Assembly (NCBI GenBank): GCA_044227045.1
Contig: JBGAFW010000037.1
Location: 65,129 to 98,911, forward strand
Source of the DNA: Labilithrix sp.
Lineage (GTDB): Bacteria; Myxococcota_A; Polyangia; Polyangiales; Polyangiaceae
Length of the DNA stretch: 33,783 nt
Direction: 5' to 3'
Shown in pieces: positions 16,571-26,299 of the stretch. Made by a program: the position numbers and the translations under genes. The notes beneath the pieces are model-generated. The model was not told the origin of the DNA and did not search any database. It was given only the letters and a program-made list of their open reading frames with translations. Every line of letters begins with the position of its first letter. Positions within the stretch are counted from its first letter, which is position 1.

Positions 16571-17608
16571 ATGAAGCGCGTGCGAATTCACAAGGCTGGC
16601 GGCTACGAGCGGCTCGCGATCGAGACCTCGCTCCCCGATCCCACTCCAAAGACTGGTGAGGTGCGCGTCGCCGTGGAGGCGATTGGCGTGAACTTCGCGG
16701 ACTGCATCGTGCGGATGGGGCTCTACGCGTCGGCGAAGGAGTACGTCGGCTGGCCGATCACGCCTGGCTTCGAGGTGGCTGGGACGATCGACGCGGTCGG
16801 CGACGGCGTCACGCAGTGGAAGGTGGGGGGCCGCGTCATCGGGCTCACGCGATTTTTCGGTTACTCGTCGAGCGTCGTCGTTCCAGAGGAGCAGGTGTTT
16901 GCGATCCCTGATGCGTGGTCGATGGAGCAGGCCGCGGCGTTTCCCGTCGTCTACCTCACCGCGGACTACGCGCTGTTCGAGCTGGCGCGACCTCGCAAGG
17001 GCGCGAAGGTGCTCGTTCACTCCGCGGCGGGCGGCGTCGGCGGCGCGCTCTTGCAGCTCGCGCGCACGGCGGGCTTCGAGACGGTCGGCGTGGTGGGGCG
17101 CACGGAGAAGGTCGAGGCTGCGAAGAAGCTCGGCGCCACCCATGTCATCGACAAGAGCACGCAGGATCTTTGGGCGGAGGCCGAGCGCATCGCACCGAAG
17201 GGATACGACGCGGTGCTCGACGCGAATGGCGTGTCGACGCTACGTGCAAGTTACAAGCATCTACGGCCCACCGGGCGGCTCGTGATTTATGGGTTCCACT
17301 CGATGATGCGCAAAGACGGGCCGGGCACTCCAAGCTGGCCGAAGCTCGCGGCGGATTGGGTGAGGACGCCGCGGTTCAATCCGCTCGACATGACGAACGA
17401 CAACAAGAGCGTGATGGCGTTCAACCTGTCCTACTTGTTCGAGGAGAAACACCTCCTCGAAGAGGCGATGGAGCGGCTGATGCGGCTCGTGAAAGAGGGG
17501 AAGATCGAGCCACCTCCCACGCAGACGTTCAAGCTCGAGGCAGTCGCCGATGCCCACCGCGCGATCGAGTCGGGCAGGACGACCGGCAAGCTCGTGCTGC
17601 TTACCTAG
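16571..17608 (+). CDS. MDR-superfamily NAD(P)H:quinone oxidoreductase / zinc-binding dehydrogenase-like (VAT-1-like)
   Basis: GroES-like N-terminus. The Rossmann motif is LVHSAAGGVGGALLQLAR. The overall length and layout match quinone oxidoreductases. Confidence 0.75.
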   Translation: MKRVRIHKAGGYERLAIETSLPDPTPKTGEVRVAVEAIGVNFADCIVRMGLYASAKEYVGWPITPGFEVAGTIDAVGDGVTQWKVGGRVIGLTRFFGYSSSVVVPEEQVFAIPDAWSMEQAAAFPVVYLTADYALFELARPRKGAKVLVHSAAGGVGGALLQLARTAGFETVGVVGRTEKVEAAKKLGATHVIDKSTQDLWAEAERIAPKGYDAVLDANGVSTLRASYKHLRPTGRLVIYGFHSMMRKDGPGTPSWPKLAADWVRTPRFNPLDMTNDNKSVMAFNLSYLFEEKHLLEEAMERLMRLVKEGKIEPPPTQTFKLEAVADAHRAIESGRTTGKLVLLT

Positions 17609-17617
17609 TTTGGGTGA

Positions 17618-19861
17618 TCACGCGCGGATCGCGGCGGTCGATGAGGAGGACGCGGACGTCGACGAGGTCTCTGCGTCCGAGGTCTCGGCGACGGCGGCGA
17701 CGGTGACGGGGACGGCGCTGAACGCGGCGTTGCCGGTGAGGCGGTCGATGCGCATCTCGTCGGTGAGATCGTTGATGCTCACGCCCGCGTGCGCGGTCGC
17801 GACGGACGTGCGCGTGCGTGCTGCGCCGTTCGCTTTGCGGTCGTGTCCCCAGCCGTGTGGAAGGCTCACGACACCAGGCATCATCTCGTCGCTGATCGCC
17901 ACGACGGCGTCGACCTGGCCGCGCACGCTCTTCACGCGGGCCTTCGAGCCATCGCGAAGATCAAGTCGCTCGGCGTCCTTCGGGTGAACGAGCAGCGTGC
18001 ATCGCGCCGGGCCCTTCACGAGGCGCGCTGCGTTGTGGAGCCACGAGTTGTTGCTGCGGAGATGACGGCGGCCGACGAGCATGAGGGCAGGCACGTCGCG
18101 ATCGATCGTGGACTCGAGCGCGTCGACTTCGGCGACGAAGGCCTTTGGCGCGAGCTCGACCCGGCCGCTCTTCGTTCGGAGCATGCCGGGCAAGCGCGGC
18201 TCGAGCGGGCCGAGCTTGATGCCATGCGGGTGCTTGCGGAGCTCTTTCACCGAGAGGCCACCGCCGCCCACGACATGCTTCTTCGTTCCGAACGCGCCAT
18301 AGGGACCGGCGCGGAGCGCGAGGTCGATCGTGCGCTCCGGGTTCAGGAGCTGCTCGAAGGCCGCGCGCGCGATGCGTTGGCGAAGGCCGTCGCCGAAGCG
18401 ATAGCGGGCGATGAGATCGCGGATGATCTCTCCGTCGTCGCGTTCGTTGGGATCTTTGGGCAATGCGGCGTCGACCCACTTCGCGGAGTTCTCGACCGCG
18501 TAGCCATGGAGCGCGAGATCGTAATGCGGACGCTGGAGTGGAGAGCACGGCGGCAAGATGACGTGGGCGTGGCGCGTCGTCTCGTTGATGTAGCTGTCGA
18601 TCGACACCATGAAGTCGAGGTGCGCCCCGAGGGCATGATCGAGCTTGGCGCCGTTCGGAGCGGAGAGCACCGGGTTGCCCGCGCTCGTGATGAGCGCACG
18701 GACGCGGTCGGGGCCTTCGGTCTCGATCTCGTCGGCGAGCGTGGCGATCGGGAGCTCGCCGCCGGTCTCGGAGAGGCCACGCACGCGGCTCTTGAAGCGG
18801 CCGTGTCCGCTCAAGCCAGCGATGTCGGCGATGCGCACCACGTCGGCGGCGGGCGTCGTCCACATCAGGCCGCCTGGGCGGTCGAGGTTGCCGGTCACCG
18901 CTGCGAGCGCATAGGCAAGCCATGAGGTGAGCGTCGCGTGCTCTTGATGGCAGGTGCCGACGCGCACGTAACACGCCGCGCTCTTGGCCTTCGCGAACGC
19001 ATGCGCGATCGATCGCACGACGCTCGGAGCGATGCCGACCGCCTTGCTCACGCGCTCGGGCGTGAAGCGCTTCGCGAGAGAGCGCAGCTCGGTCATCCCC
19101 GCGAGGAGAGGCTCGAGATGCGTGCTGGGGTTTGCGAGCCCGTCTTCGAAGACGACGTTGAGCAGCGCGAAGAAGAAGAGCGCGTCGGTCCCCGGACGCA
19201 AGAACACGTGCTCGTCGGCGAGCTCGGCGGTCTCGGTGCGTCGTGGATCGACGACGACGAGCCGACCGCTGCGCGCCTTCAGCTCCTTGATCCGACGGCG
19301 CACGTCCGGAGCCGTCATGATGCTGCCGTTCGACACGATTGGATTGGCGCCAACGCAGAGCCAGTAGTCCGTTCGATCGATGTCGGGGACTGGCATGAAG
19401 AGCACGTGCCCGAACATGTCGTTGGACGCCCGCATGTGCGGGACCTGATCGGAGGTCGACGCGGAGTAGAGGTTCTTCGTGCCGAGCGTGCGAAACGCGA
19501 TCTGGCCGACCGTCATCAGGCCGAGGTTGTGCGCGGTCGGATTGCCTTGGTAGATCGCGAGCGAGTGCTTGCCGTGCCGCTTGGTGACACGACGCAGCCC
19601 CTCGGCGGCGATCGTGAGCGCCTCGTCCCACGAGACCTCGCGGAACGTCTGGCTCTCCTTCTCTCGAACGAGCGGACGGCGCACGCGATCGGGATCCTCG
19701 TGGAGGTCCTGCATCGCGACGACCTTTGGGCACACGTAGCCACGGCTGACCGGATCGTCGGCGTCACCCCGGATGCCTGCGATGCGCCGTCCGCCGTCCT
19801 CGACGTCGACGACGATCCCGCACGTCGCTTCGCAAATCGTGCATGTTGCAAGCTTCTTCAT
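17618..19861 (-). CDS. Molybdopterin-dependent oxidoreductase (MopB superfamily: formate dehydrogenase, or assimilatory nitrate reductase-like). It is cytoplasmic and has no Tat signal.
   Basis: The N-terminal 4Fe-4S motif is CTICEATC...C. The length (747 aa) fits MopB. I chose the start at MKKLATC (19861). The ORF track's 807-aa version adds an Arg-rich 60-aa extension and is unlikely. Confidence 0.75.
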   Translation of the reverse strand: MKKLATCTICEATCGIVVDVEDGGRRIAGIRGDADDPVSRGYVCPKVVAMQDLHEDPDRVRRPLVREKESQTFREVSWDEALTIAAEGLRRVTKRHGKHSLAIYQGNPTAHNLGLMTVGQIAFRTLGTKNLYSASTSDQVPHMRASNDMFGHVLFMPVPDIDRTDYWLCVGANPIVSNGSIMTAPDVRRRIKELKARSGRLVVVDPRRTETAELADEHVFLRPGTDALFFFALLNVVFEDGLANPSTHLEPLLAGMTELRSLAKRFTPERVSKAVGIAPSVVRSIAHAFAKAKSAACYVRVGTCHQEHATLTSWLAYALAAVTGNLDRPGGLMWTTPAADVVRIADIAGLSGHGRFKSRVRGLSETGGELPIATLADEIETEGPDRVRALITSAGNPVLSAPNGAKLDHALGAHLDFMVSIDSYINETTRHAHVILPPCSPLQRPHYDLALHGYAVENSAKWVDAALPKDPNERDDGEIIRDLIARYRFGDGLRQRIARAAFEQLLNPERTIDLALRAGPYGAFGTKKHVVGGGGLSVKELRKHPHGIKLGPLEPRLPGMLRTKSGRVELAPKAFVAEVDALESTIDRDVPALMLVGRRHLRSNNSWLHNAARLVKGPARCTLLVHPKDAERLDLRDGSKARVKSVRGQVDAVVAISDEMMPGVVSLPHGWGHDRKANGAARTRTSVATAHAGVSINDLTDEMRIDRLTGNAAFSAVPVTVAAVAETSDAETSSTSASSSSTAAIRA

Positions 19862-20068
19862 GATGCCCCGCCCGGTAGAAGGAGCGTCGATTGTTGCACA
19901 AGAGCAAGGCTGGTGGATGGTCGATCCATGACGGTTCGCACGAGAAAAATAGAGCGATCGAGCCACCTTCAAGAAATCACGCCCGCGAAGATCGATTTCG
20001 AACCGCACTCGTAAAAGAAGAGCTCGGCCGCGACCGAGCATCCAACGGCGAGTCGGGAGAGACCAGTC

Positions 20069-20896
20069 ATGGCGGCGTACCGGGATGAGGCAGCGTCACT
20101 CGAGGAGCGGCATCGCCAACTGCGTCGAGCGCTCGAAGAGACACGGGCGCGCTCGAGCGCGCTCACGCAAGAGGAGGCGCATCTCCACCAGGAGCTCGCC
20201 AAGATCCATCGCGAGCTCGAGGCCCGTGCACGCGCGCCGCGCCGCTCGCTGCCGATGGTGAACATGCTGATCGCGTCGCCGTGCGACGTGCCGTGGGAGA
20301 AGATGGTCGGCGACGATCGCGTGCGTCACTGCGGCCAGTGCGACAAGAACGTCCACAACCTCTCCGCGATGACGACGGACGAAGCGCACGCCTTCCTCGA
20401 GAGCATGACGCGCACAAACCACAAGACGGGCGCGCCGCTGCCTTGCCTGAACCTTTGGCAACGCCACGACGGCACCGTCATCACCGCCGACTGCCCGGTC
20501 GGTGTTCGCCGCCGGCGCATGCGCTCGCTCTTGGCCGCGTCGCTCGGCGTCGGGGGCGCGGCCGTCATCGCGGCCACCGCGCTTGCGGTGATGGGTGCGT
20601 CACCCGCATCACCGCAGTCATTCACCATCACCACGTCACCAACGATTCAACCCATCACGCCCACGGCTTACGTCGACACGAACGGCTACATCGCCGTCGA
20701 AGGCACGCCGGGCATTCGCATTTACGACGACCACGGCTTCGTCGGGGTGACGCCGCTCACCTACGTGGCGAACCTCACGACATACGTGCAGGCGCAGTCG
20801 GTGGCGCACGTACGTGTCGACATGCAGCCGACGCCGCCGATTCGCATGGCGGGCGCGCCGCCGCCGTCGCTTCGGGTCGGAGGAGGAAAGCGATGA
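20069..20896 (+). CDS. Membrane protein with an N-terminal coiled coil, a conserved 5-Cys domain, one TM helix, and a degenerate C-terminal PEGA-like domain
   Basis: The Cys domain reads LPMVNMLIASPCDVPW...HCGQCDKNVHNLSAMT...PCLNL...TADCPVG. The TM helix is LLAASLGVGGAAVIAATALAVMG. It is a paralogue of the next gene. Confidence 0.6.
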   Translation: MAAYRDEAASLEERHRQLRRALEETRARSSALTQEEAHLHQELAKIHRELEARARAPRRSLPMVNMLIASPCDVPWEKMVGDDRVRHCGQCDKNVHNLSAMTTDEAHAFLESMTRTNHKTGAPLPCLNLWQRHDGTVITADCPVGVRRRRMRSLLAASLGVGGAAVIAATALAVMGASPASPQSFTITTSPTIQPITPTAYVDTNGYIAVEGTPGIRIYDDHGFVGVTPLTYVANLTTYVQAQSVAHVRVDMQPTPPIRMAGAPPPSLRVGGGKR

Positions 20897-22053
20897 GCGA
20901 CACGATCCGCATCCTGCCTCGTGGCGCGACGAGCGGCGAGGACGGCGTGACGCCGACGACGCGTGGTCGCGCCTTCGAAGCCTCTTCGGAGGCGGAGACG
21001 CCGTACGGCATGATGGCGAAGGGCGCGCCCGCGCGCATTCCGCGCCGGTCATCACCCGCGGTGATCCTGAACGCGGGCGAGCTCCCGACGAGCGCACCTG
21101 CCGACGACGTGATCGAACGCCAGCGCGCGCTCGCGCAGCGGCTCGACGAGGTGCGCGAGCAGAACACCCGCCTTCGCGTGGAAGAGAAGCGACTCGAACG
21201 AGAGATCGCGTCGGTTCAGGAAGGGCTGAGGGCAGGGCGACGGCAGCTGCCAATGGCCAAGATGCTGATCGCGAGCCCTTGCGATGTGCCGTGGAGCGCG
21301 ATGCAAGAGGAGGATCGCTCGGGGGATCGACGGCGATTCTGCGGCAAGTGCCACAAGCACGTCCACAACCTCGCCGCGATGACGCGCGTCGAAGTGGAGG
21401 ACTTCCTCGAAGCGAACGCGCGGGCGAGCGACGACAACAGCGGAGTCTGCGTCCGTCTCTACGAGCGCACCGATGGCACCGTGCTCACAGCAGATTGTCC
21501 GGTCGGGCTGAACCGCCGGCGTTCGCGCGCGGTGCTGCTCGCGTCGCTCGGCGCCGGCGCCTGCGCGCTCTTTGGCTTCAGCGCGATCGCGCTTGCGATG
21601 ACCACGTTCTCGCCGACGCCGCCACCGCCAGCGCCGGCGCCGCGGATCGTCGTCGAGCAGGGGCCCACGGTGTACGTGCCGCAGGTGATCGAGCGAATTC
21701 CTGCAGGATACACGCGTCTCCCCGACGCTGCGGCCGGCGCGGGCTGGGTCTTTCTTCGCGCTCCGGAAGGCGCGAAGATCTTCGAGGGCAAGCGTTTGCT
21801 CGGCACCGGTCCGCTCGTCCTCACGATGAGCGCCGGAGAGCACACGCTGCGCGCGGAAGGCGTCGACGCGGCGACGGGCAAGAAGTGGACGGACTCACGC
21901 TCGTTCACGATCGCCGCCGGAAACGCTCCGGGCGGCGTCGCGAAGACCGACGTGGTCTTCATGAAGCCGGCCATGCGCCCAAGCCCTCCGAAGCCCGCGG
22001 CCGAGGACATCGCCGAGCTCGCCGGTCTCCTCCAGAGCACGAACCAGCTCTGA
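20893..22053 (+). CDS. Membrane protein with an N-terminal coiled coil, a conserved 5-Cys domain, one TM helix, and a canonical C-terminal PEGA domain
   Basis: Its ATG at 20893 overlaps the upstream TGA (ATGA), and GGAGGAAAG lies just before it. The Cys domain reads LPMAKMLIASPCDVPW...FCGKCHKHVHNLAAMT...VCVRL...TADCPVG. The PEGA motif is LRAPEGAKIFEGKRLLGTGPL...GEHTLR. Confidence 0.65.
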   Translation: MSDTIRILPRGATSGEDGVTPTTRGRAFEASSEAETPYGMMAKGAPARIPRRSSPAVILNAGELPTSAPADDVIERQRALAQRLDEVREQNTRLRVEEKRLEREIASVQEGLRAGRRQLPMAKMLIASPCDVPWSAMQEEDRSGDRRRFCGKCHKHVHNLAAMTRVEVEDFLEANARASDDNSGVCVRLYERTDGTVLTADCPVGLNRRRSRAVLLASLGAGACALFGFSAIALAMTTFSPTPPPPAPAPRIVVEQGPTVYVPQVIERIPAGYTRLPDAAAGAGWVFLRAPEGAKIFEGKRLLGTGPLVLTMSAGEHTLRAEGVDAATGKKWTDSRSFTIAAGNAPGGVAKTDVVFMKPAMRPSPPKPAAEDIAELAGLLQSTNQL

Positions 22054-22225: not shown

Positions 22226-23269
22226 ATGAAGACGACGTCCAGCAAGCCGCTTCTCCTCCTCCTTGCCTCTGCATCGCTTGCGTTCGGTATCGCGACCGGC
22301 GGTTGCGCCGCCGAGCCCCGCACGCTGTCCGATCCGCACAAGCCGAGCGAGATGGCGTCGGCGCCCCGCACGACCTCGGCCAGCGCGGACATGAGCGTTG
22401 GCGACGCGCAGAAGCTCTTGATCAACGCCGGCGTCGAGTCCCAGCCGCCGCCCGCGGGCGCGGCCGGATCGATGGACGAGGCGCTCGCGATCCTGAAGAG
22501 CGACGAGCTTGCTCAGTTCCCGAAGGCGCTCAGCTACGCGAAGTCCGCCGCCAAGGGCAAGGACAGCAAGAAGGCGACCGCGCTCGCCGCGCAGATCGAG
22601 ATCGCGTGGGGAGAGAACCTTCGCATCGTCGCCAAGGTCGTCGACCTCCTCGCGGCGGATCTCCGCAACGAGCGTCATGACCTCGAGGATCTCGAGGCCC
22701 TCGGCAAGCTCACGCCGGACGACAAGGCTCACCTCGAGACGTTGAAGAAGCTGCTCGACGAGAAGGAGCCGCTCGCCAACGCGATGTCGCGTCTCGCGCC
22801 GGTTCACCTCGCCGAAGGTCGCACGCTCGCAGAGAGCGTCGTCAAGGATGCACCCGATAGCTACGAAGGTTATCGCGTCCTCGCCGACTACTACCGCATC
22901 CGCGGCGACTGGGATCGCTACGACGCGATGGTGAAGGAAGTCGAGTCACGCTACCCGCAGAGCCACGGCCTCCTCTTCTTGAAGGGCATCGCGCTCGCGG
23001 AGCGTCAGAACGACAACGAAGGCGCGACGAAGATGCTGAACGAGGCCCTCAAGGCCGATCCGAAGTTCTCGCGCGCACGCGTGCAGCTCTTCTTCATCGC
23101 GAAGGGCCTCACCGCGAAGCGTGACGAGTACCAGAAGCTCAAGGCCGAGAGCCCGCACCACCAGCTCGTCGAGATCGCCGGCCCGGTGCTCGAAGAAGTG
23201 TTCAAGATGCGTGAGCGCCGCCGCGCCACCATCCAGCGCTACGACTGGCGCGGCACGCTCCGCGACTGA
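22226..23269 (+). CDS. Helical (TPR-like?) lipoprotein, hypothetical
   Basis: ATG 22226 begins a signal with lipobox ATGGC. The mature part is predicted helical and rich in K/E/A/L. The ORF track's GTG start at 22181 is less likely. Confidence 0.5.
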   Translation: MKTTSSKPLLLLLASASLAFGIATGGCAAEPRTLSDPHKPSEMASAPRTTSASADMSVGDAQKLLINAGVESQPPPAGAAGSMDEALAILKSDELAQFPKALSYAKSAAKGKDSKKATALAAQIEIAWGENLRIVAKVVDLLAADLRNERHDLEDLEALGKLTPDDKAHLETLKKLLDEKEPLANAMSRLAPVHLAEGRTLAESVVKDAPDSYEGYRVLADYYRIRGDWDRYDAMVKEVESRYPQSHGLLFLKGIALAERQNDNEGATKMLNEALKADPKFSRARVQLFFIAKGLTAKRDEYQKLKAESPHHQLVEIAGPVLEEVFKMRERRRATIQRYDWRGTLRD

Positions 23270-23326
23270 AGCTCACTCATCGTCACGGACTTCGGCAGAG
23301 GCCGGGGTCGACGGAGTCTAAGACCT

Positions 23327-24313
23327 CTACGGCAACACGACGATCGTGTCGTGGACGTCGAGCGCGGACCAGAGGACATCGATGGATCCGTCATCGACGG
23401 CCACGCATCCGGCCGTCCAGTCTTTGCTGCTTCCATTCCCGTGGATCTCGACCTCGCCGCCGAGGTTCGTCGACTGTGACGGCTCGGTGCACGCGTCGAA
23501 GGCGCTCTCGATCTGCGCTTGCTGCGCCTTCGTGATCAAGCCTGCGCCGGCGCCGCGCTTGGCGTCTTCGGGCGTCGGGTAGCTGAGCAGAAACGCCTTG
23601 TAGTACGACGAGTCCGGCACGAGCCGCGGGATGTAGAAGACGCCTTCGGGCGTCTTGCCGTCGCCTTGCTTCTGCTTCGCGCCCGTCGGCTCGAAGCCAA
23701 GGCCCGAGCGGAAGTTCTTCACGAGCGAGCCGTTCTTGCAGAGCGCGACGTTGCGCTTGCTCTTGTGGACGACGACGTAGTCGTCTGGGGTCGTGTCGCA
23801 AGGCGAGAGCTTGTCACCGGCGTTGCCCCACGCAGCGACGCAGTCGATCGCGCCGACCGAAGGATCCCAACGTGGATCGATCTGCTTGGCGACGCTCGTG
23901 ACCTTCGTGTCCTTCGTCAACGTCACGATCGAGCACGACGTCGCGCTCGCGGGCGGGGCACACGACTCGCCCTCCGCGCCGAAGTGATCGAGCTTCCATC
24001 CCTCCGCCGCCGTCGCCGTCAGCGTGACCGCGGTCGAAGGATCGAACGTCGCTGCGCATTGACCCGGGCAGTCGATGCCTTGTGGCTCGGAGCGGACCGA
24101 GCCATGCGCGCCGTCGAGGATGACCTCGAGCTTCACGCGACCATCCGCGGACCCCTCGGTGGATGCGTTCTCGTCGGGTGTGCCTGCCTTCGGCGACGGC
24201 GCGGCCGGACCAGCGATGCCTCCGCCGTCACTTCCTCCGCACGCTCCGATCGCGCTCGCGGTCACGGACAGCAGCGCGAAGACGGACCTAGAAAATAGGC
24301 ACTTGGTGATCAT
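23327..24313 (-). CDS. L,D-transpeptidase (YkuD/ErfK family) lipoprotein with a Cys-rich N-terminal domain
   Basis: Lipobox AIGAC. The YkuD catalytic region is HKSKRNVALCKNG...GDGKTPEGVFYI...IHGNGSS...TAGCVAV, which matches the His/Cys motif. Confidence 0.7.
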   Translation of the reverse strand: MITKCLFSRSVFALLSVTASAIGACGGSDGGGIAGPAAPSPKAGTPDENASTEGSADGRVKLEVILDGAHGSVRSEPQGIDCPGQCAATFDPSTAVTLTATAAEGWKLDHFGAEGESCAPPASATSCSIVTLTKDTKVTSVAKQIDPRWDPSVGAIDCVAAWGNAGDKLSPCDTTPDDYVVVHKSKRNVALCKNGSLVKNFRSGLGFEPTGAKQKQGDGKTPEGVFYIPRLVPDSSYYKAFLLSYPTPEDAKRGAGAGLITKAQQAQIESAFDACTEPSQSTNLGGEVEIHGNGSSKDWTAGCVAVDDGSIDVLWSALDVHDTIVVLP

Positions 24314-24404
24314 GAGCGACGCGACGACGCTATCGCCTCCGCTCGAACGCGCCGTCTTACATCACTTGTCCGGCGCGTCTCTTGGACCTCGCAATTCGCC
24401 GGGA

Positions 24405-25412
24405 TCAGCGGACGGCGTTGTCGAGGATGCGCTGAATGAGCGCGTCGTAGTCGAGGCCGGTCGATGCCGCGGCCATCGCGAAGTCGTCCGTCTTGGCGAG
24501 CGAGGGGTTCGGGTTGACCTCGATCACGACGATCTCGCCTTCTTCGGTGAGACGAACGTCGAGGCGGACCACGCCGCGGATCTTCAAGATGCGGTATGCG
24601 AGGCGCGCCGTCTTGGCGAGGCGCTCCACGGTGCCCGCGGGGAGGGGATCCGGCTCGCCATTTCGGATGCGCCACTTCCGGCGGTAGGCGTCATCCCATT
24701 TCACCTTCTGCGTCGTGAAGCGAGGCGCCGACTCGTCGTCGTCAGCCTTGCCGAAGAAGATCTCGCGGGGCGGGAACGCGACCGGCCTTGGATTGCCGAG
24801 GACACCCACGGTGAGCTCGCGTCCTTCGATGTACTCCTCGATCAACGCGTCGCACTCGAAGCTGCGGTGGATGAAGCCGGCGCGCTCGATCGCCTCTTCG
24901 GCGGTCGTGCAGAAGGAGGCCTTGCTGATGCCGTTGCTGCCTTCTTCGCCGAGAGGCTTCACGAACGCGGGGAAGCGAAAGCGCCGCAATTTTCGGAGGG
25001 GCCGAGCCTTCGACGAGACGACGCCGCTCGCGACCCGCACGTGATGAAAGGCGAGGAGCTTCTTCGCGAGCGCCTTGTCACGGCAGAGCATGAGCGCCTC
25101 AGGCCCTGCTCCGGTGTAACGCACCTTCATCAGATCGAGCAGGCTCGGGATGCTCGGCTCGTGGGAGCGGTCGAGGTAGAACGACTCGACCATGTTGAAG
25201 ACGACATCCGGCGCGAAGCTCGAGATGCGATCGAACATGTCACGGACGTTGTCGTAGACCGCGAGCGTCTCGACCTCGTGGCCGAGGTTGCGGAGCGACG
25301 AGATGACGTCCGCCTCCATCGGCTTCTTCTCCTCACGGCGCAGCGCGGTGACGGAGAACGTATCCGTCGGCTCCGGAGGCCGACCGATGTCGAACAAGCA
25401 GAGAACCTTCAC
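24405..25412 (-). CDS. D-alanine--D-alanine ligase family ATP-grasp protein
   Basis: Ddl-like central and C-terminal regions are present (LCRDKALAKKLL, FVKP...GSNGISKA, EEYIEGRELTVGVLGN, VRLDVRL...EVNPNP). The start is GTG and there is no clear SD. The N-terminal Gly motif is atypical. Confidence 0.65.
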   Translation of the reverse strand: MKVLCLFDIGRPPEPTDTFSVTALRREEKKPMEADVISSLRNLGHEVETLAVYDNVRDMFDRISSFAPDVVFNMVESFYLDRSHEPSIPSLLDLMKVRYTGAGPEALMLCRDKALAKKLLAFHHVRVASGVVSSKARPLRKLRRFRFPAFVKPLGEEGSNGISKASFCTTAEEAIERAGFIHRSFECDALIEEYIEGRELTVGVLGNPRPVAFPPREIFFGKADDDESAPRFTTQKVKWDDAYRRKWRIRNGEPDPLPAGTVERLAKTARLAYRILKIRGVVRLDVRLTEEGEIVVIEVNPNPSLAKTDDFAMAAASTGLDYDALIQRILDNAVR

Positions 25413-25501: not shown

Positions 25502-26188
25502 TCATGAAGCGGTAGGAGGAGTCGCTGGAGCGATCGCGCGGTAGCCGACGCCTCGCACCGTCTCGATCATGCCGTCGTGGCCACCGAGCTTCTCGCGAAG
25601 GTTCTTCACGTGGACCTCGACGACGTTCGACGAAGGGTCGAAGCTCGTCGACCACACCTTCTGGAGTAGCTCGGAGCGGCTCACCGCCCGACCTGCGTGC
25701 TGCATCAAGTAGGCGAGGAGGGCGAGCTCACGTGAGGTGAGATCGATCGTGCGGCCATCGATCGTCGCGCGACGTGCGACGGTGTCGACGGTGAGCGGAC
25801 CGAGGCGCAGCGTGCTTCCTCCACCACCGCCGGCCCGCCGTCCGAGGGCACGCACACGCGCGAGCAGCTCGCCGAGATCGAACGGCTTCGACAAGTAGTC
25901 ATCCGCGCCGGCGTCGAGGCCGAGGATGCGCTCGCCCACCTCGGCACGGGCGGTGAGCATCAAGATCGGCGTGCGCACTCCACGATCGCGCACGGCCCGG
26001 CACACCGCGATCCCATCCATGCCGGGAAGCATCCAGTCGAGCACGACCGCGTCGTAGGCGACCGCTTCGATTTGATCGATCGCGCGTGTCCCGTCACCCA
26101 CTTGATCGACGACATGCCCTTCTTCGGTAAGTGCACGCACGAGGAAGCGAGCGACCTTCGGGTTGTCCTCGACGACGAGGAGCTTCAT
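25502..26188 (-). CDS. OmpR/PhoB-family two-component response regulator
   Basis: The receiver domain begins MKLLVVEDN and contains the phospho-acceptor context VLDWMLPGMDG and LTA. The C-terminal winged helix reads LTSRELALLAYL...GVGYR. An alternative start lies 8 or 17 codons upstream. Confidence 0.85.
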   Translation of the reverse strand: MKLLVVEDNPKVARFLVRALTEEGHVVDQVGDGTRAIDQIEAVAYDAVVLDWMLPGMDGIAVCRAVRDRGVRTPILMLTARAEVGERILGLDAGADDYLSKPFDLGELLARVRALGRRAGGGGGSTLRLGPLTVDTVARRATIDGRTIDLTSRELALLAYLMQHAGRAVSRSELLQKVWSTSFDPSSNVVEVHVKNLREKLGGHDGMIETVRGVGYRAIAPATPPTAS

Positions 26189-26299
26189 GCCTCGATCATA
26201 CCGCTCGGACATGCAGATTCCTGCGGTCTTCGCGAACATGAAGAAACCTTCACGTGCGCTTCAGCCATCTCCGGACCGGAGATCGTAGGGTTCGGAAGG

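What the first reader, a model, noticed from the sequence alone, without database searches (positions are those of the whole stretch)
20069..22053. Translationally coupled tandem paralogues: coiled coil, conserved 5-Cys domain, TM helix, PEGA domain
The two adjacent genes overlap by ATGA and share the same layout. Both have an N-terminal Arg/Glu-rich coiled coil and then a conserved Cys module, C-x14-17-(H/F)C-x2-C-x3-VHNL-x-AMT ... C-x14-TADCPVG, with five invariant Cys. A single TM helix follows, and then a PEGA-type beta-sandwich presumably outside the cytoplasm (canonical APEGAKIFEGKRLLGTGPL in the second gene, degenerate in the first). A cytoplasmic metal-binding module plus a TM helix plus a periplasmic domain is the layout of anti-sigma factors and one-component transmembrane sensors. 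I cannot assign the Cys module to a named family. The pair may form a heteromeric envelope-spanning signalling or scaffold complex.
Basis: partly seen in the sequence, partly recalled or inferred. Interest (0 to 1): 0.7.

Follow-up and report, generated by a model that had tools for sequence, protein, structure and literature searches.

The report
Paired membrane proteins with unnamed five-cysteine domain
Two overlapping neighbouring genes encode related single-pass membrane proteins whose cytoplasmic five-cysteine domain belongs to a very large, highly conserved family that no searched database names, so the pair is real but its function is unknown and the anti-sigma idea finds no support.

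Summary
Gene A (20069-20896, 275 aa) and gene B (20893-22053, 386 aa) overlap by ATGA and are paralogues (37% identity, E 5e-48). Both have a heptad coiled coil, a roughly 85-aa module with five cysteines, a basic stretch, one TM helix (N-in) and a periplasmic part.

Gene B's periplasmic domain is a confident beta-sandwich carrying a PEGA motif, but it does not reach the Pfam PEGA threshold. Gene A's copy has a 54-nt in-frame deletion specific to this genome.

The A/B duplication is old. The 4-nt overlap is kept in at least three other contigs, and tight tandem arrays recur in 17 of 80 loci.

The anti-sigma or sensor reading is not supported. No sigma factor turned up among 152 immediate neighbours, there is no anti-sigma domain, and the periplasmic part is the variable part.

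Best reading: a co-translated, probably heteromeric, membrane-tethered adaptor with a probable zinc-binding head. Metal binding, pairing and function are all inferred. Interest is moderate.

The parts
20069..20896 (+). Gene A, 275 aa: coiled coil, Cys5 module, TM helix, truncated beta-sandwich
   Evidence: ORF list. Paralogue of B, E 5e-48. Its 90% cluster has orthologues of 292-293 aa.
20090..20242 (+). A residues 8-58: Arg/Glu-rich coiled coil that starts with the family's conserved N-terminal M-x-YRD(D/E) motif
   Evidence: Heptad d positions are LLTLLI. Aligns with the AF2 helix of B. The N-terminal motif is conserved in Polyangia homologues.
20255..20518 (+). A residues 63-150: Cys5 module (C72, C88, C91, C126, C142), ending in DCPVG plus RRRRMR
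   Evidence: Alignment A1 and conservation tables.
20525..20605 (+). A residues 153-179: single TM helix, G/A-rich, positive-inside (N-in)
   Evidence: Hydropathy 2.0; K+R 5 versus 0 on the flanks. G160 and G162 are invariant in the subfamily.
20666..20833 (+). A residues about 200-255: remnant of the periplasmic beta-sandwich. A 54-nt in-frame deletion lies after about position 20772.
   Evidence: Protein and DNA alignments with L081. The other four full-length members of the cluster are 292-293 aa (a sixth, P0373, is a 181-aa partial).
20879..20896 (+). Coupling junction: GGAGGAGGA (20879-20887), 5-nt spacer, then ATGA, in which B's start overlaps A's stop (20893-20896)
   Evidence: Sequence read. 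The same junction is present in L081. 4-nt overlaps are also seen in L084 and in the P0005 contig.
20893..22053 (+). Gene B, 386 aa: disordered N-terminal extension, coiled coil, Cys5 module, TM helix, beta-sandwich, C-terminal helix
   Evidence: Translation. Identical protein P0001 is in the public collection. AF2 model m8decc6fa8e77.
20893..21099 (+). B residues 1-69: low-confidence, probably disordered extension specific to B-clade orthologues (MS-x-T-x-R/Q-L/I start)
   Evidence: pLDDT 35-56. The start is conserved in P0002-P0005.
21100..21237 (+). B residues 70-115: coiled-coil helix
   Evidence: AF2 helix 70-115, pLDDT 94-97. Heptad d positions are VLVLLV.
21253..21528 (+). B residues 121-212: Cys5 module (C130, C150, C153, C186, C202) plus the basic juxtamembrane run
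   Evidence: In AF2 the first half has pLDDT about 80 and the C-terminal hairpin 47-62.
21529..21609 (+). B residues 213-239: TM helix
   Evidence: Hydropathy 2.0; K+R 4 versus 0 on the flanks. AF2 helix 203-238.
21739..21957 (+). B residues 283-355: periplasmic beta-sandwich with the 'APEGAKIF...G-x-H-x-LRAEG' pattern (PEGA-like)
   Evidence: Seven strands, pLDDT 94-97. No Pfam PEGA hit. Only generic Ig-like matches in the PDB.
22000..22032 (+). B residues 370-380: short C-terminal helix
   Evidence: AF2 secondary structure, moderate confidence.

Best explanation
A and B are an anciently duplicated, co-translated pair of bitopic inner-membrane proteins, with the N-terminus in the cytoplasm and the C-terminus in the periplasm. 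Both belong to a very large family that carries no name in any library searched. The family is defined by a roughly 80-residue cytoplasmic five-cysteine module that sits 6-8 residues from the membrane.

Shown: the paralogy, the overlap, the family, Cys conservation, and the predicted topology and fold elements.

Inferred:
1. The module binds a metal, most likely one Zn. The likely ligands are the CxxC knuckle plus the two Cys at the ends of the C-terminal hairpin. The fifth Cys would be spare or complete a different site.
2. A and B pair in equal amounts through their coiled coils and their G/A-rich TM helices.
3. The conserved head docks a conserved cytoplasmic partner at the membrane, so the protein acts as a tethered adaptor or scaffold.
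4. The periplasmic beta-sandwich is a lineage-specific accessory. It is dispensable enough that gene A has lost part of it here.
For: - Paralogy: E 5e-48.
- Overlap: ATGA plus a Shine-Dalgarno-like sequence.
- The A and B clades are old sisters. They are still adjacent with a 4-nt overlap in L081/L082, L084 and the P0005 contig.
- 17 of 80 family loci carry tandem same-strand copies. There are 18 adjacent pairs, 6 of them with 4-nt overlaps, including in Planctomycetota.
- The five Cys are at least 99% conserved.
- Family size: 16,831 representative clusters at E<=1e-3 and 7,645 at E<=1e-10; at least 596 genomic loci in six phyla.
- Core identity is about 45-55% across phyla.
- There is no signal peptide and the positive-inside rule puts the module in the cytoplasm. 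Conserved cytoplasmic cysteines most plausibly serve as metal ligands rather than disulfides (general knowledge, not tested here).
- Only the head is conserved. Tails vary: Pro-rich, PEGA-like, CarboxypepD_reg or other.
- Coiled-coil heptads and a high-confidence helix.
- Gly residues in the TM helix are invariant within the subfamily.
Against: - Nothing tests metal binding, A-B contact or any partner.
- AF2 does not fold the most conserved C-terminal hairpin with confidence (pLDDT about 50), so no Cys geometry could be checked.
- About half of family members lack the coiled coil, and many are single-copy. P0012 is an A-clade gene without a B partner. Pairing therefore cannot be essential to the family.
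- No conserved neighbour points to a partner.
Confidence: 0.5

Rival explanations
1. The pair is a transmembrane anti-sigma factor or one-component sensor. The periplasmic beta-sandwich senses an envelope signal, and the cytoplasmic zinc module holds and releases a sigma factor or other regulator.
For: The layout (cytoplasmic Cys module, TM helix, variable extracytoplasmic domain) resembles that of anti-sigma factors. An OmpR-type response regulator lies 3.4 kb downstream on the other strand.
Against: Scans of A and B found no zf-HC2 or anti-sigma-domain match in Pfam or NCBIfam. The module is predicted as beta-hairpin, helix, beta-hairpin, not a helical bundle. No sigma-70 family appears among the listed neighbour families of 75 upstream and 77 downstream neighbours, and each side has only one kinase. 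Most members have only a short Pro-rich tail outside the membrane. Gene A tolerates a deletion in its 'sensor' domain.
Confidence: 0.13
2. The five Cys hold an Fe-S cluster rather than Zn. The proteins would then be membrane-bound redox or electron-transfer accessories, or redox sensors, possibly linked to the divergently transcribed molybdopterin oxidoreductase.
For: There are five invariant Cys, including a C-P as in ferredoxin motifs. A molybdopterin/Fe4S4 oxidoreductase lies directly upstream and divergent, both here and in L081. Zn-ADH/quinone oxidoreductase genes are the most frequent neighbours in Polyangia. One member gives a noise-level hit to the FhuF-type C-terminus.
Against: The oxidoreductase link is seen only in close relatives that share the whole gene order. 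It is absent from L083, L084 and the 80 genome loci. Cys spacing matches no known Fe-S signature found by Pfam or NCBIfam.
Confidence: 0.12
3. The proteins are cell-division or cytoskeleton tethers. NCBI names Sorangium homologues 'cell division protein ZapB'. On this view the coiled coil recruits division or polarity proteins to the membrane.
For: Two Sorangium homologues carry the ZapB name. The coiled coil gives weak ZapB, SMC or prefoldin-type hits.
Against: The ZapB Pfam match is only E 0.13 in one homologue, and A and B have none. No NCBIfam model supports the name. Half of the family lacks the coiled coil. No division-gene neighbours were found.
Confidence: 0.07
4. The proteins are membrane-tethered nucleic-acid-binding zinc fingers, similar in logic to ToxR. 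The GATA-like knuckle and the basic juxtamembrane run would bind DNA or RNA at the membrane.
For: Sub-threshold matches to the KDM6 GATA-like zinc domain: 8 of 53 members with best E 0.0016, and UTY in the PDB at E 0.038. Conserved Arg and aromatic residues plus an RRRR run are present.
Against: All these matches fall below every threshold. They cover only the CxxC hairpin, and the aligned UTY segment lacks the first Cys. The module sits 6-8 residues from the bilayer, which leaves little room for DNA.
Confidence: 0.06

Closest known systems
Unnamed Cys5-module family (hypothetical proteins of Polyangia, Planctomycetota, Acidobacteriota and others; for example Minicystis rosea A7982_13188 and the Sorangium proteins XXY19401.1 and XXT21347.1, named 'ZapB')
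   Same: They share the same roughly 80-aa module (IASPC-x3-W-x2-M-x-GD-x-R-x-RFC-x2-C-x-K-x-VYNLS-x-MT...CVRLYRR-x-DGTVLT-x-DCPVG), a basic run and then a TM helix. The Polyangia members also share the M-x-YRDD coiled coil.
   Different: A and B belong to a small subfamily (about a dozen clusters found) with a periplasmic beta-sandwich. Both have loop insertions before the fourth Cys. B adds a 70-aa disordered N-terminal extension. Most members are 160-250 aa with only a Pro-rich tail.
PEGA domain (Pfam PF08308; roughly 70-aa cell-surface domain, Adindla et al. 2004, PMC2447325)
   Same: About 70 aa, all-beta and extracytoplasmic. B carries the literal PEGA motif followed by G-x-x-P-L and G-x-H. 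Other family members carry CarboxypepD_reg at the same position. From memory, not tested here, CarboxypepD_reg is in the same Pfam clan as PEGA.
   Different: No Pfam match for A or B at E<=10. One orthologue scores 15.6 bits against a cut-off of 20.8.
Zinc-binding anti-sigma factors (ZAS; zf-HC2, RsrA/ChrR/RslA type)
   Same: A cytoplasmic Cys-containing head, a single TM helix and a variable periplasmic domain.
   Different: There is no H-x3-C-x2-C helical anti-sigma domain and no match to any such model. No adjacent ECF sigma gene exists here or in 80 other loci.
KDM6 (UTX/UTY) GATA-like zinc domain (PF21326) and Pfam DUF7531 (PF24375, N-terminal 70 positions)
   Same: Both show weak sequence resemblance around W-x(n)-(F/Y)C-x2-C-x3-V-(F/Y)-N-L.
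   Different: All scores are below threshold (15 bits against 27 for DUF7531; E 0.0016-0.04 for KDM6). The first, fourth and fifth Cys have no counterpart in the aligned UTY segment.

Membership tests
Unnamed Cys5-module membrane protein family (defined here from alignments A2 and A3) | Five Cys in the pattern SPC ... C-x2-C ... C-x15-C(PVG), with the flanking invariant W, R, D, G and T residues | tested here: met
   A and B have all invariant columns. Each Cys is at least 99% conserved in 368 instances.
Unnamed Cys5-module membrane protein family (defined here from alignments A2 and A3) | The module is followed within about 8 residues by a basic run and a single TM helix, and there is no signal peptide | tested here: met
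   Hydropathy and charge counts for A and B. A TM-like segment follows the module in 111 of 142 representatives.
PEGA domain (PF08308) | Match to the Pfam model at its gathering score (20.8 bits) | tested here: not met
   No hit for the whole proteins at E<=1 or for the isolated C-terminal domains at E<=10. Orthologue P0006 scores 15.6 bits, E 0.016.
PEGA domain (PF08308) | A roughly 70-aa all-beta domain with the PEGA motif, located outside the cytoplasm | tested here: inconclusive
   B 283-355 has seven strands at pLDDT 94-97 and the motif APEGAKIF, and its outside location follows from the predicted topology. A has TPGIRIY and a deleted strand. PDB matches are generic Ig-like folds only, E>=0.18. 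The domain definition comes from PMC2447325.
Zinc-binding anti-sigma factor (ZAS) | Anti-sigma domain with the H-x3-C-x2-C motif (zf-HC2 or RsrA-like model match) | tested here: not met
   No such Pfam or NCBIfam hit for A or B at E<=1. The predicted secondary structure is beta-beta-alpha-beta(-beta), not a helical bundle.
Zinc-binding anti-sigma factor (ZAS) | Co-transcribed or adjacent ECF sigma factor gene | tested here: not met
   The window neighbours are a Mo-oxidoreductase, a TPR lipoprotein, YkuD, a Ddl-like protein, an OmpR-type regulator and an RND pump. No sigma family is listed among 152 neighbours. The gene caller used was crude, and only the 25 most frequent families per side are shown.
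ZapB (PF06005), the name given by NCBI to Sorangium homologues | Match to the ZapB model; a small soluble coiled-coil protein | tested here: not met
   No hit in A or B. E 0.13 in P0010. No NCBIfam hit for P0054, the protein so named. The proteins have a TM helix and a Cys domain.
DUF7531 (PF24375) | Match at the gathering score (27 bits) over the 288-position model | tested here: not met
   15.2 bits, covering positions 11-70 only. 7 of 53 members match, best E 3.3e-4.
Metal-binding (Zn or Fe-S) domain | Stoichiometric metal bound through the conserved Cys | not testable with these tools
   This is inferred only from Cys invariance and the predicted cytoplasmic location.

The most novel reading that the evidence does not exclude
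The Cys5 module is a previously undescribed, membrane-proximal metal-binding domain. It would define a new, widespread class of bitopic adaptor or signalling proteins in Polyangia, Planctomycetota, Acidobacteriota and allies, with more than 16,000 sequence clusters. Tightly coupled tandem paralogues such as A and B would form obligate hetero-oligomers that connect an unknown, highly conserved cytoplasmic partner to the envelope.
Probability: 0.3. Interest if true: 0.6.

Novelty: new variant of a known kind. Interest (0 to 1): 0.45.

Why it matters
A domain conserved at about 50% identity across at least six phyla, with five invariant cysteines and more than 16,000 representative clusters, has no Pfam or NCBIfam model, no solved relative and no literature found here. 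Some members carry a misleading 'ZapB' name.

Defining this domain would improve annotation of several under-studied soil phyla, many of them with large genomes. It would also open a tractable biochemical question: which metal does it bind, and which partner does it hold at the membrane?

The specific A/B pair adds a natural test case for paralogue heteromerisation. It also shows that the periplasmic domain can decay while the cytoplasmic head is kept.

Tried and rejected
- Pfam, NCBIfam and PADLOC scans of A and B returned only coiled-coil noise.
- Pfam on the isolated C-terminal domains and on 8 homologues gave PEGA only below threshold, in one orthologue.
- Pfam on 53 isolated Cys modules gave only sub-threshold KDM6_GATAL and DUF7531 hits.
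- Profile searches of PDB sequences with the full family, the Cys module and the beta-sandwich found nothing significant.
- Foldseek against the PDB with the full model gave generic Ig-like hits, E>=0.18.
- The afdb50 library was not available.
- A homologue search with B's C-terminal domain alone returned nothing, not even the parent protein, so it is uninformative.
- An exact look-up of P0001 on contigs failed.
- Neighbour clustering and Pfam counts over 80 loci found no conserved partner.
- The downstream TPR lipoprotein is not part of the conserved unit. It is absent after the pair in L084.
- Literature searches for DUF7531 and PEGA with coiled coil gave nothing relevant.
- A defence-system role was rejected.
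Full report
**Observation**

The window has about 65% G+C. Gene A is 20069-20896 (275 aa) and gene B is 20893-22053 (386 aa), both on the + strand. B's ATG overlaps A's TGA as ATGA at 20893-20896. GGAGGAGGA lies at 20879-20887, 5 nt upstream of B's start. The two products are clear paralogues: BLASTP gives 37% identity over 241 aa, E 5e-48, covering the coiled coil, the Cys module, the TM helix and the start of the periplasmic domain. B's start is real, because orthologues share the MS-x-T-x-R/Q-L/I N-terminus.

**Anatomy**

AlphaFold2 on B used a 115-sequence alignment.

| Region of B | Residues | Model confidence |
|---|---|---|
| N-terminal extension | 1-69 | disordered |
| Long helix | 70-115 | pLDDT 94-97 |
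| Cys module, first part | about 125-180 | pLDDT about 80 |
| Cys module, C-terminal hairpin | 186-202 | pLDDT 47-62 |
| TM helix | 203-238 | pLDDT about 67-76 |
| Seven-stranded beta-sandwich | 283-355 | pLDDT 94-97 |
| Short C-terminal helix | 370-380 | moderate |

Additional points:
- The coiled-coil helices have heptad d positions LLTLLI (A) and VLVLLV (B), and are rich in Arg and Glu.
- Each protein has exactly one hydrophobic segment (A 153-179, B 213-239).
- The N-side flank of that segment has 5 (A) or 4 (B) Lys/Arg residues, and the C-side flank has none.
- Neither protein has a signal peptide.

The predicted topology is therefore N-in, C-out. This puts the Cys module in the cytoplasm, directly under the membrane.

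**The Cys module**

The five Cys are A C72, C88, C91, C126, C142 and B C130, C150, C153, C186, C202. They are invariant or nearly so in 40 aligned homologues. Each is at least 99% conserved in 115 homologues and in 368 domain instances pooled from three searches.

The consensus is L-(D/E)-x-h-x-IASPC-x3-W-x2-M-x-GD-x-R-x-RFC-x2-C-x-K-x-VYNLSAMT-x2-EAE-x-LL ... G-x2-CVRLYRR-x-DGTVLT-x-DCPVG, followed by a basic run and the TM helix.

Predicted secondary structure is a beta-hairpin around the CxxC, a helix, then a second hairpin bracketed by the fourth and fifth Cys.

**Family size and spread**

- A profile of the module found 16,831 representative clusters at E<=1e-3 among 1.84 billion 50%-identity representatives. 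7,645 of these are at E<=1e-10 and 1,187 at E<=1e-30.
- A scan of one genome per species found at least 596 loci. They lie in Polyangia (Sorangium, Minicystis, Byssovorax, Labilithrix), Planctomycetota (Brocadiaceae, Pirellulaceae, Phycisphaerae, Schlesneria), Acidobacteriota (Pyrinomonadaceae, Chloracidobacterium, Holophagaceae), Chthonomonadales, Elusimicrobia and Obscuribacterales.
- Identity to B's module stays at 42-58% across these phyla.
- About 45% of instances have at least 45 aa in front of the module (the coiled coil). About 51% have 25 aa or fewer.
- A hydrophobic segment follows the module in 111 of 142 representatives.
- The extracytoplasmic tail varies. It can be short and Pro-rich, PEGA-like, CarboxypepD_reg (P0110, P0117, P0312), or another roughly 120-aa domain, as in the Minicystis group.

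**No name for the module**

- Pfam and NCBIfam give nothing for A or B at E<=1.
- Nearly all listed homologues carry no precomputed Pfam domain.
- Scanning 53 isolated modules gives only sub-threshold hits. KDM6_GATAL matches 8 members (best E 0.0016). The N-terminal 70 positions of DUF7531 match 7 members (best E 3.3e-4, about 15 bits against a cut-off of 27).
- PDB sequence profiles give only UTY/KDM6 at E 0.038 over the CxxC hairpin.
- Two Sorangium homologues are named 'cell division protein ZapB' by NCBI. No ZapB model matches them.

**The beta-sandwich**

B contains 'APEGAKIFEGKRLLGTGPL...AGEHTLRAEG'. From memory, this follows the PEGA pattern, which makes it a lead rather than a test. 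The Pfam PEGA model does not match A or B, even as isolated domains at E<=10. One orthologue, P0006, scores 15.6 bits against a cut-off of 20.8. PDB fold matches are generic Ig-like domains, and the domain profile finds nothing in PDB sequences. I call it PEGA-like rather than PEGA.

Gene A's copy is damaged. Compared with its 93%-identical orthologue in L081, the window lacks 54 nt in frame after about position 20772. This removes 'KEGAHSIRAEDPKDGRTQ', which includes the conserved G-x-H-x-(L/I)-R-A-E strand. The four other full-length members of A's 90% cluster are 292-293 aa.

**Pairing**

- L081 (86% identity for B) has the same gene order as the window and the same ATGA junction.
- L084 (about 45-50% identity) has an A-clade gene of 297 aa overlapping a B-clade gene (P0009) by 4 nt.
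- The contig carrying P0005 shows the same 4-nt overlap, with a truncated upstream gene whose identity could not be checked because no DNA was returned.
- A neighbour-joining tree separates an A clade from a B clade, and L084 contributes one gene to each. The duplication is therefore older than these lineages.
- P0012, an A-clade gene, is solitary.
- Family-wide, 17 of 80 loci carry 2-3 same-strand copies. There are 18 adjacent pairs, 6 with a 4-nt overlap, and most of the rest have gaps of 3-94 nt. Planctomycetota loci are among them.
- Several Polyangia genomes contribute more than one locus.

**Context**

In the window the pair is flanked by several genes:
- a divergent molybdopterin oxidoreductase (17618-20041, - strand);
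- a TPR lipoprotein (about 22226-23269, + strand);
- a YkuD L,D-transpeptidase, a Ddl-like ligase and an OmpR-type regulator, all on the - strand;
- an RND efflux operon.

The TPR gene does not follow the pair in L084.

Across 80 loci, BLAST clustering of all nearby ORFs finds no non-family gene in more than 13 loci. The recurrent families are generic: Ser/Thr kinases, receiver domains, SDR and Zn-ADH, plus NadE and VWA in related Acidobacteria. Pfam counts on 75 upstream and 77 downstream neighbours list no sigma factor family and one kinase on each side. My gene calling was heuristic, so this is good but not perfect evidence. PADLOC found nothing.

**Mechanism**

The conserved, constrained part of the family is a cytoplasmic, membrane-apposed five-Cys head. 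The outside part is interchangeable.

- I infer metal binding, most likely Zn. The probable ligands are the CxxC knuckle plus the two Cys that bracket the second hairpin, with the first Cys as a fifth or alternative ligand. An Fe-S cluster is not excluded.
- I infer that A and B pair through their coiled coils and their Gly/Ala-rich TM helices. G160 and G162 are invariant in the subfamily. The overlap would ensure equal production of the two.
- I infer that the head tethers a conserved cytoplasmic partner to the membrane.

None of these three steps is shown.

The anti-sigma or sensor reading shares the layout but fails both defining tests that could be run, the domain model and the adjacent sigma gene. 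It also conflicts with the dispensable outside domain.

**Verdict**

This is a lineage-specific, beta-sandwich-bearing paralogue pair within a very large, unnamed Cys5-domain family. Interest is moderate. The value lies in the undescribed domain rather than in this particular locus.

Noticed in passing
window 20772/20773 (gene A): Gene A has a 54-nt in-frame deletion relative to L081 and to the four full-length 292-293-aa members of its 90% cluster. The deletion removes a conserved strand of the periplasmic beta-sandwich. It could be a real lineage-specific decay or an assembly artefact.
   Followed up: yes
window 20022-20039: A G+C-rich 7-bp-stem hairpin (GCTCGGTCGCGGCCGAGC on the - strand, followed by a T-rich tail) lies in the A / Mo-oxidoreductase intergenic region, about 30 nt upstream of A's start. 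It also falls inside the mechanically listed N-terminal extension of the - strand ORF.
   Followed up: no
window 17618-20041 (- strand): The molybdopterin oxidoreductase ORF is listed from an ATG at 20041. The Fe4S4 motif 'MKKLATCTICEATCG' starts 61 codons later (about 19858), so the true start is probably there, which would leave a divergent intergenic region of about 210 bp.
   Followed up: no
L082 1653-2563: In this JGI contig the orthologue of gene A is called as two overlapping ORFs (122 and 181 aa). This is probably a frameshift or a sequencing error.
   Followed up: no
P0054 / P0374 (Sorangium sp. So ce216 and So ce429): NCBI names these family members 'cell division protein ZapB'. No ZapB Pfam or NCBIfam model supports this, so it looks like a misannotation driven by the coiled coil.
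   Followed up: partly
window 22226-25412 and 25502-26239: Downstream lies an envelope-related cluster: a TPR lipoprotein with a lipobox-like 'ATGGC', a YkuD L,D-transpeptidase, a D-Ala-D-Ala-ligase-like ATP-grasp protein and an OmpR-type regulator, followed by an RND efflux operon. It is syntenic in L081 but is not linked to the pair in more distant contigs.
   Followed up: partly
L005, L014, L022, L028, L031 (immediately downstream of the family gene); window 16571-17608: Zn-dependent alcohol dehydrogenase/quinone oxidoreductase genes recur next to family genes in several Polyangia MAGs, and one lies 2.4 kb upstream in the window. This may reflect only orthologous synteny among related MAGs.
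   Followed up: no
P0016, P0028, P0032, P0038, P0060, P0065 (about 305-328 aa): A second Polyangia subfamily carries a different, unassigned periplasmic domain of about 120 aa (W-x-Y-x-DG ... F-x-L-x-G-x-G) in place of the beta-sandwich.
   Followed up: no
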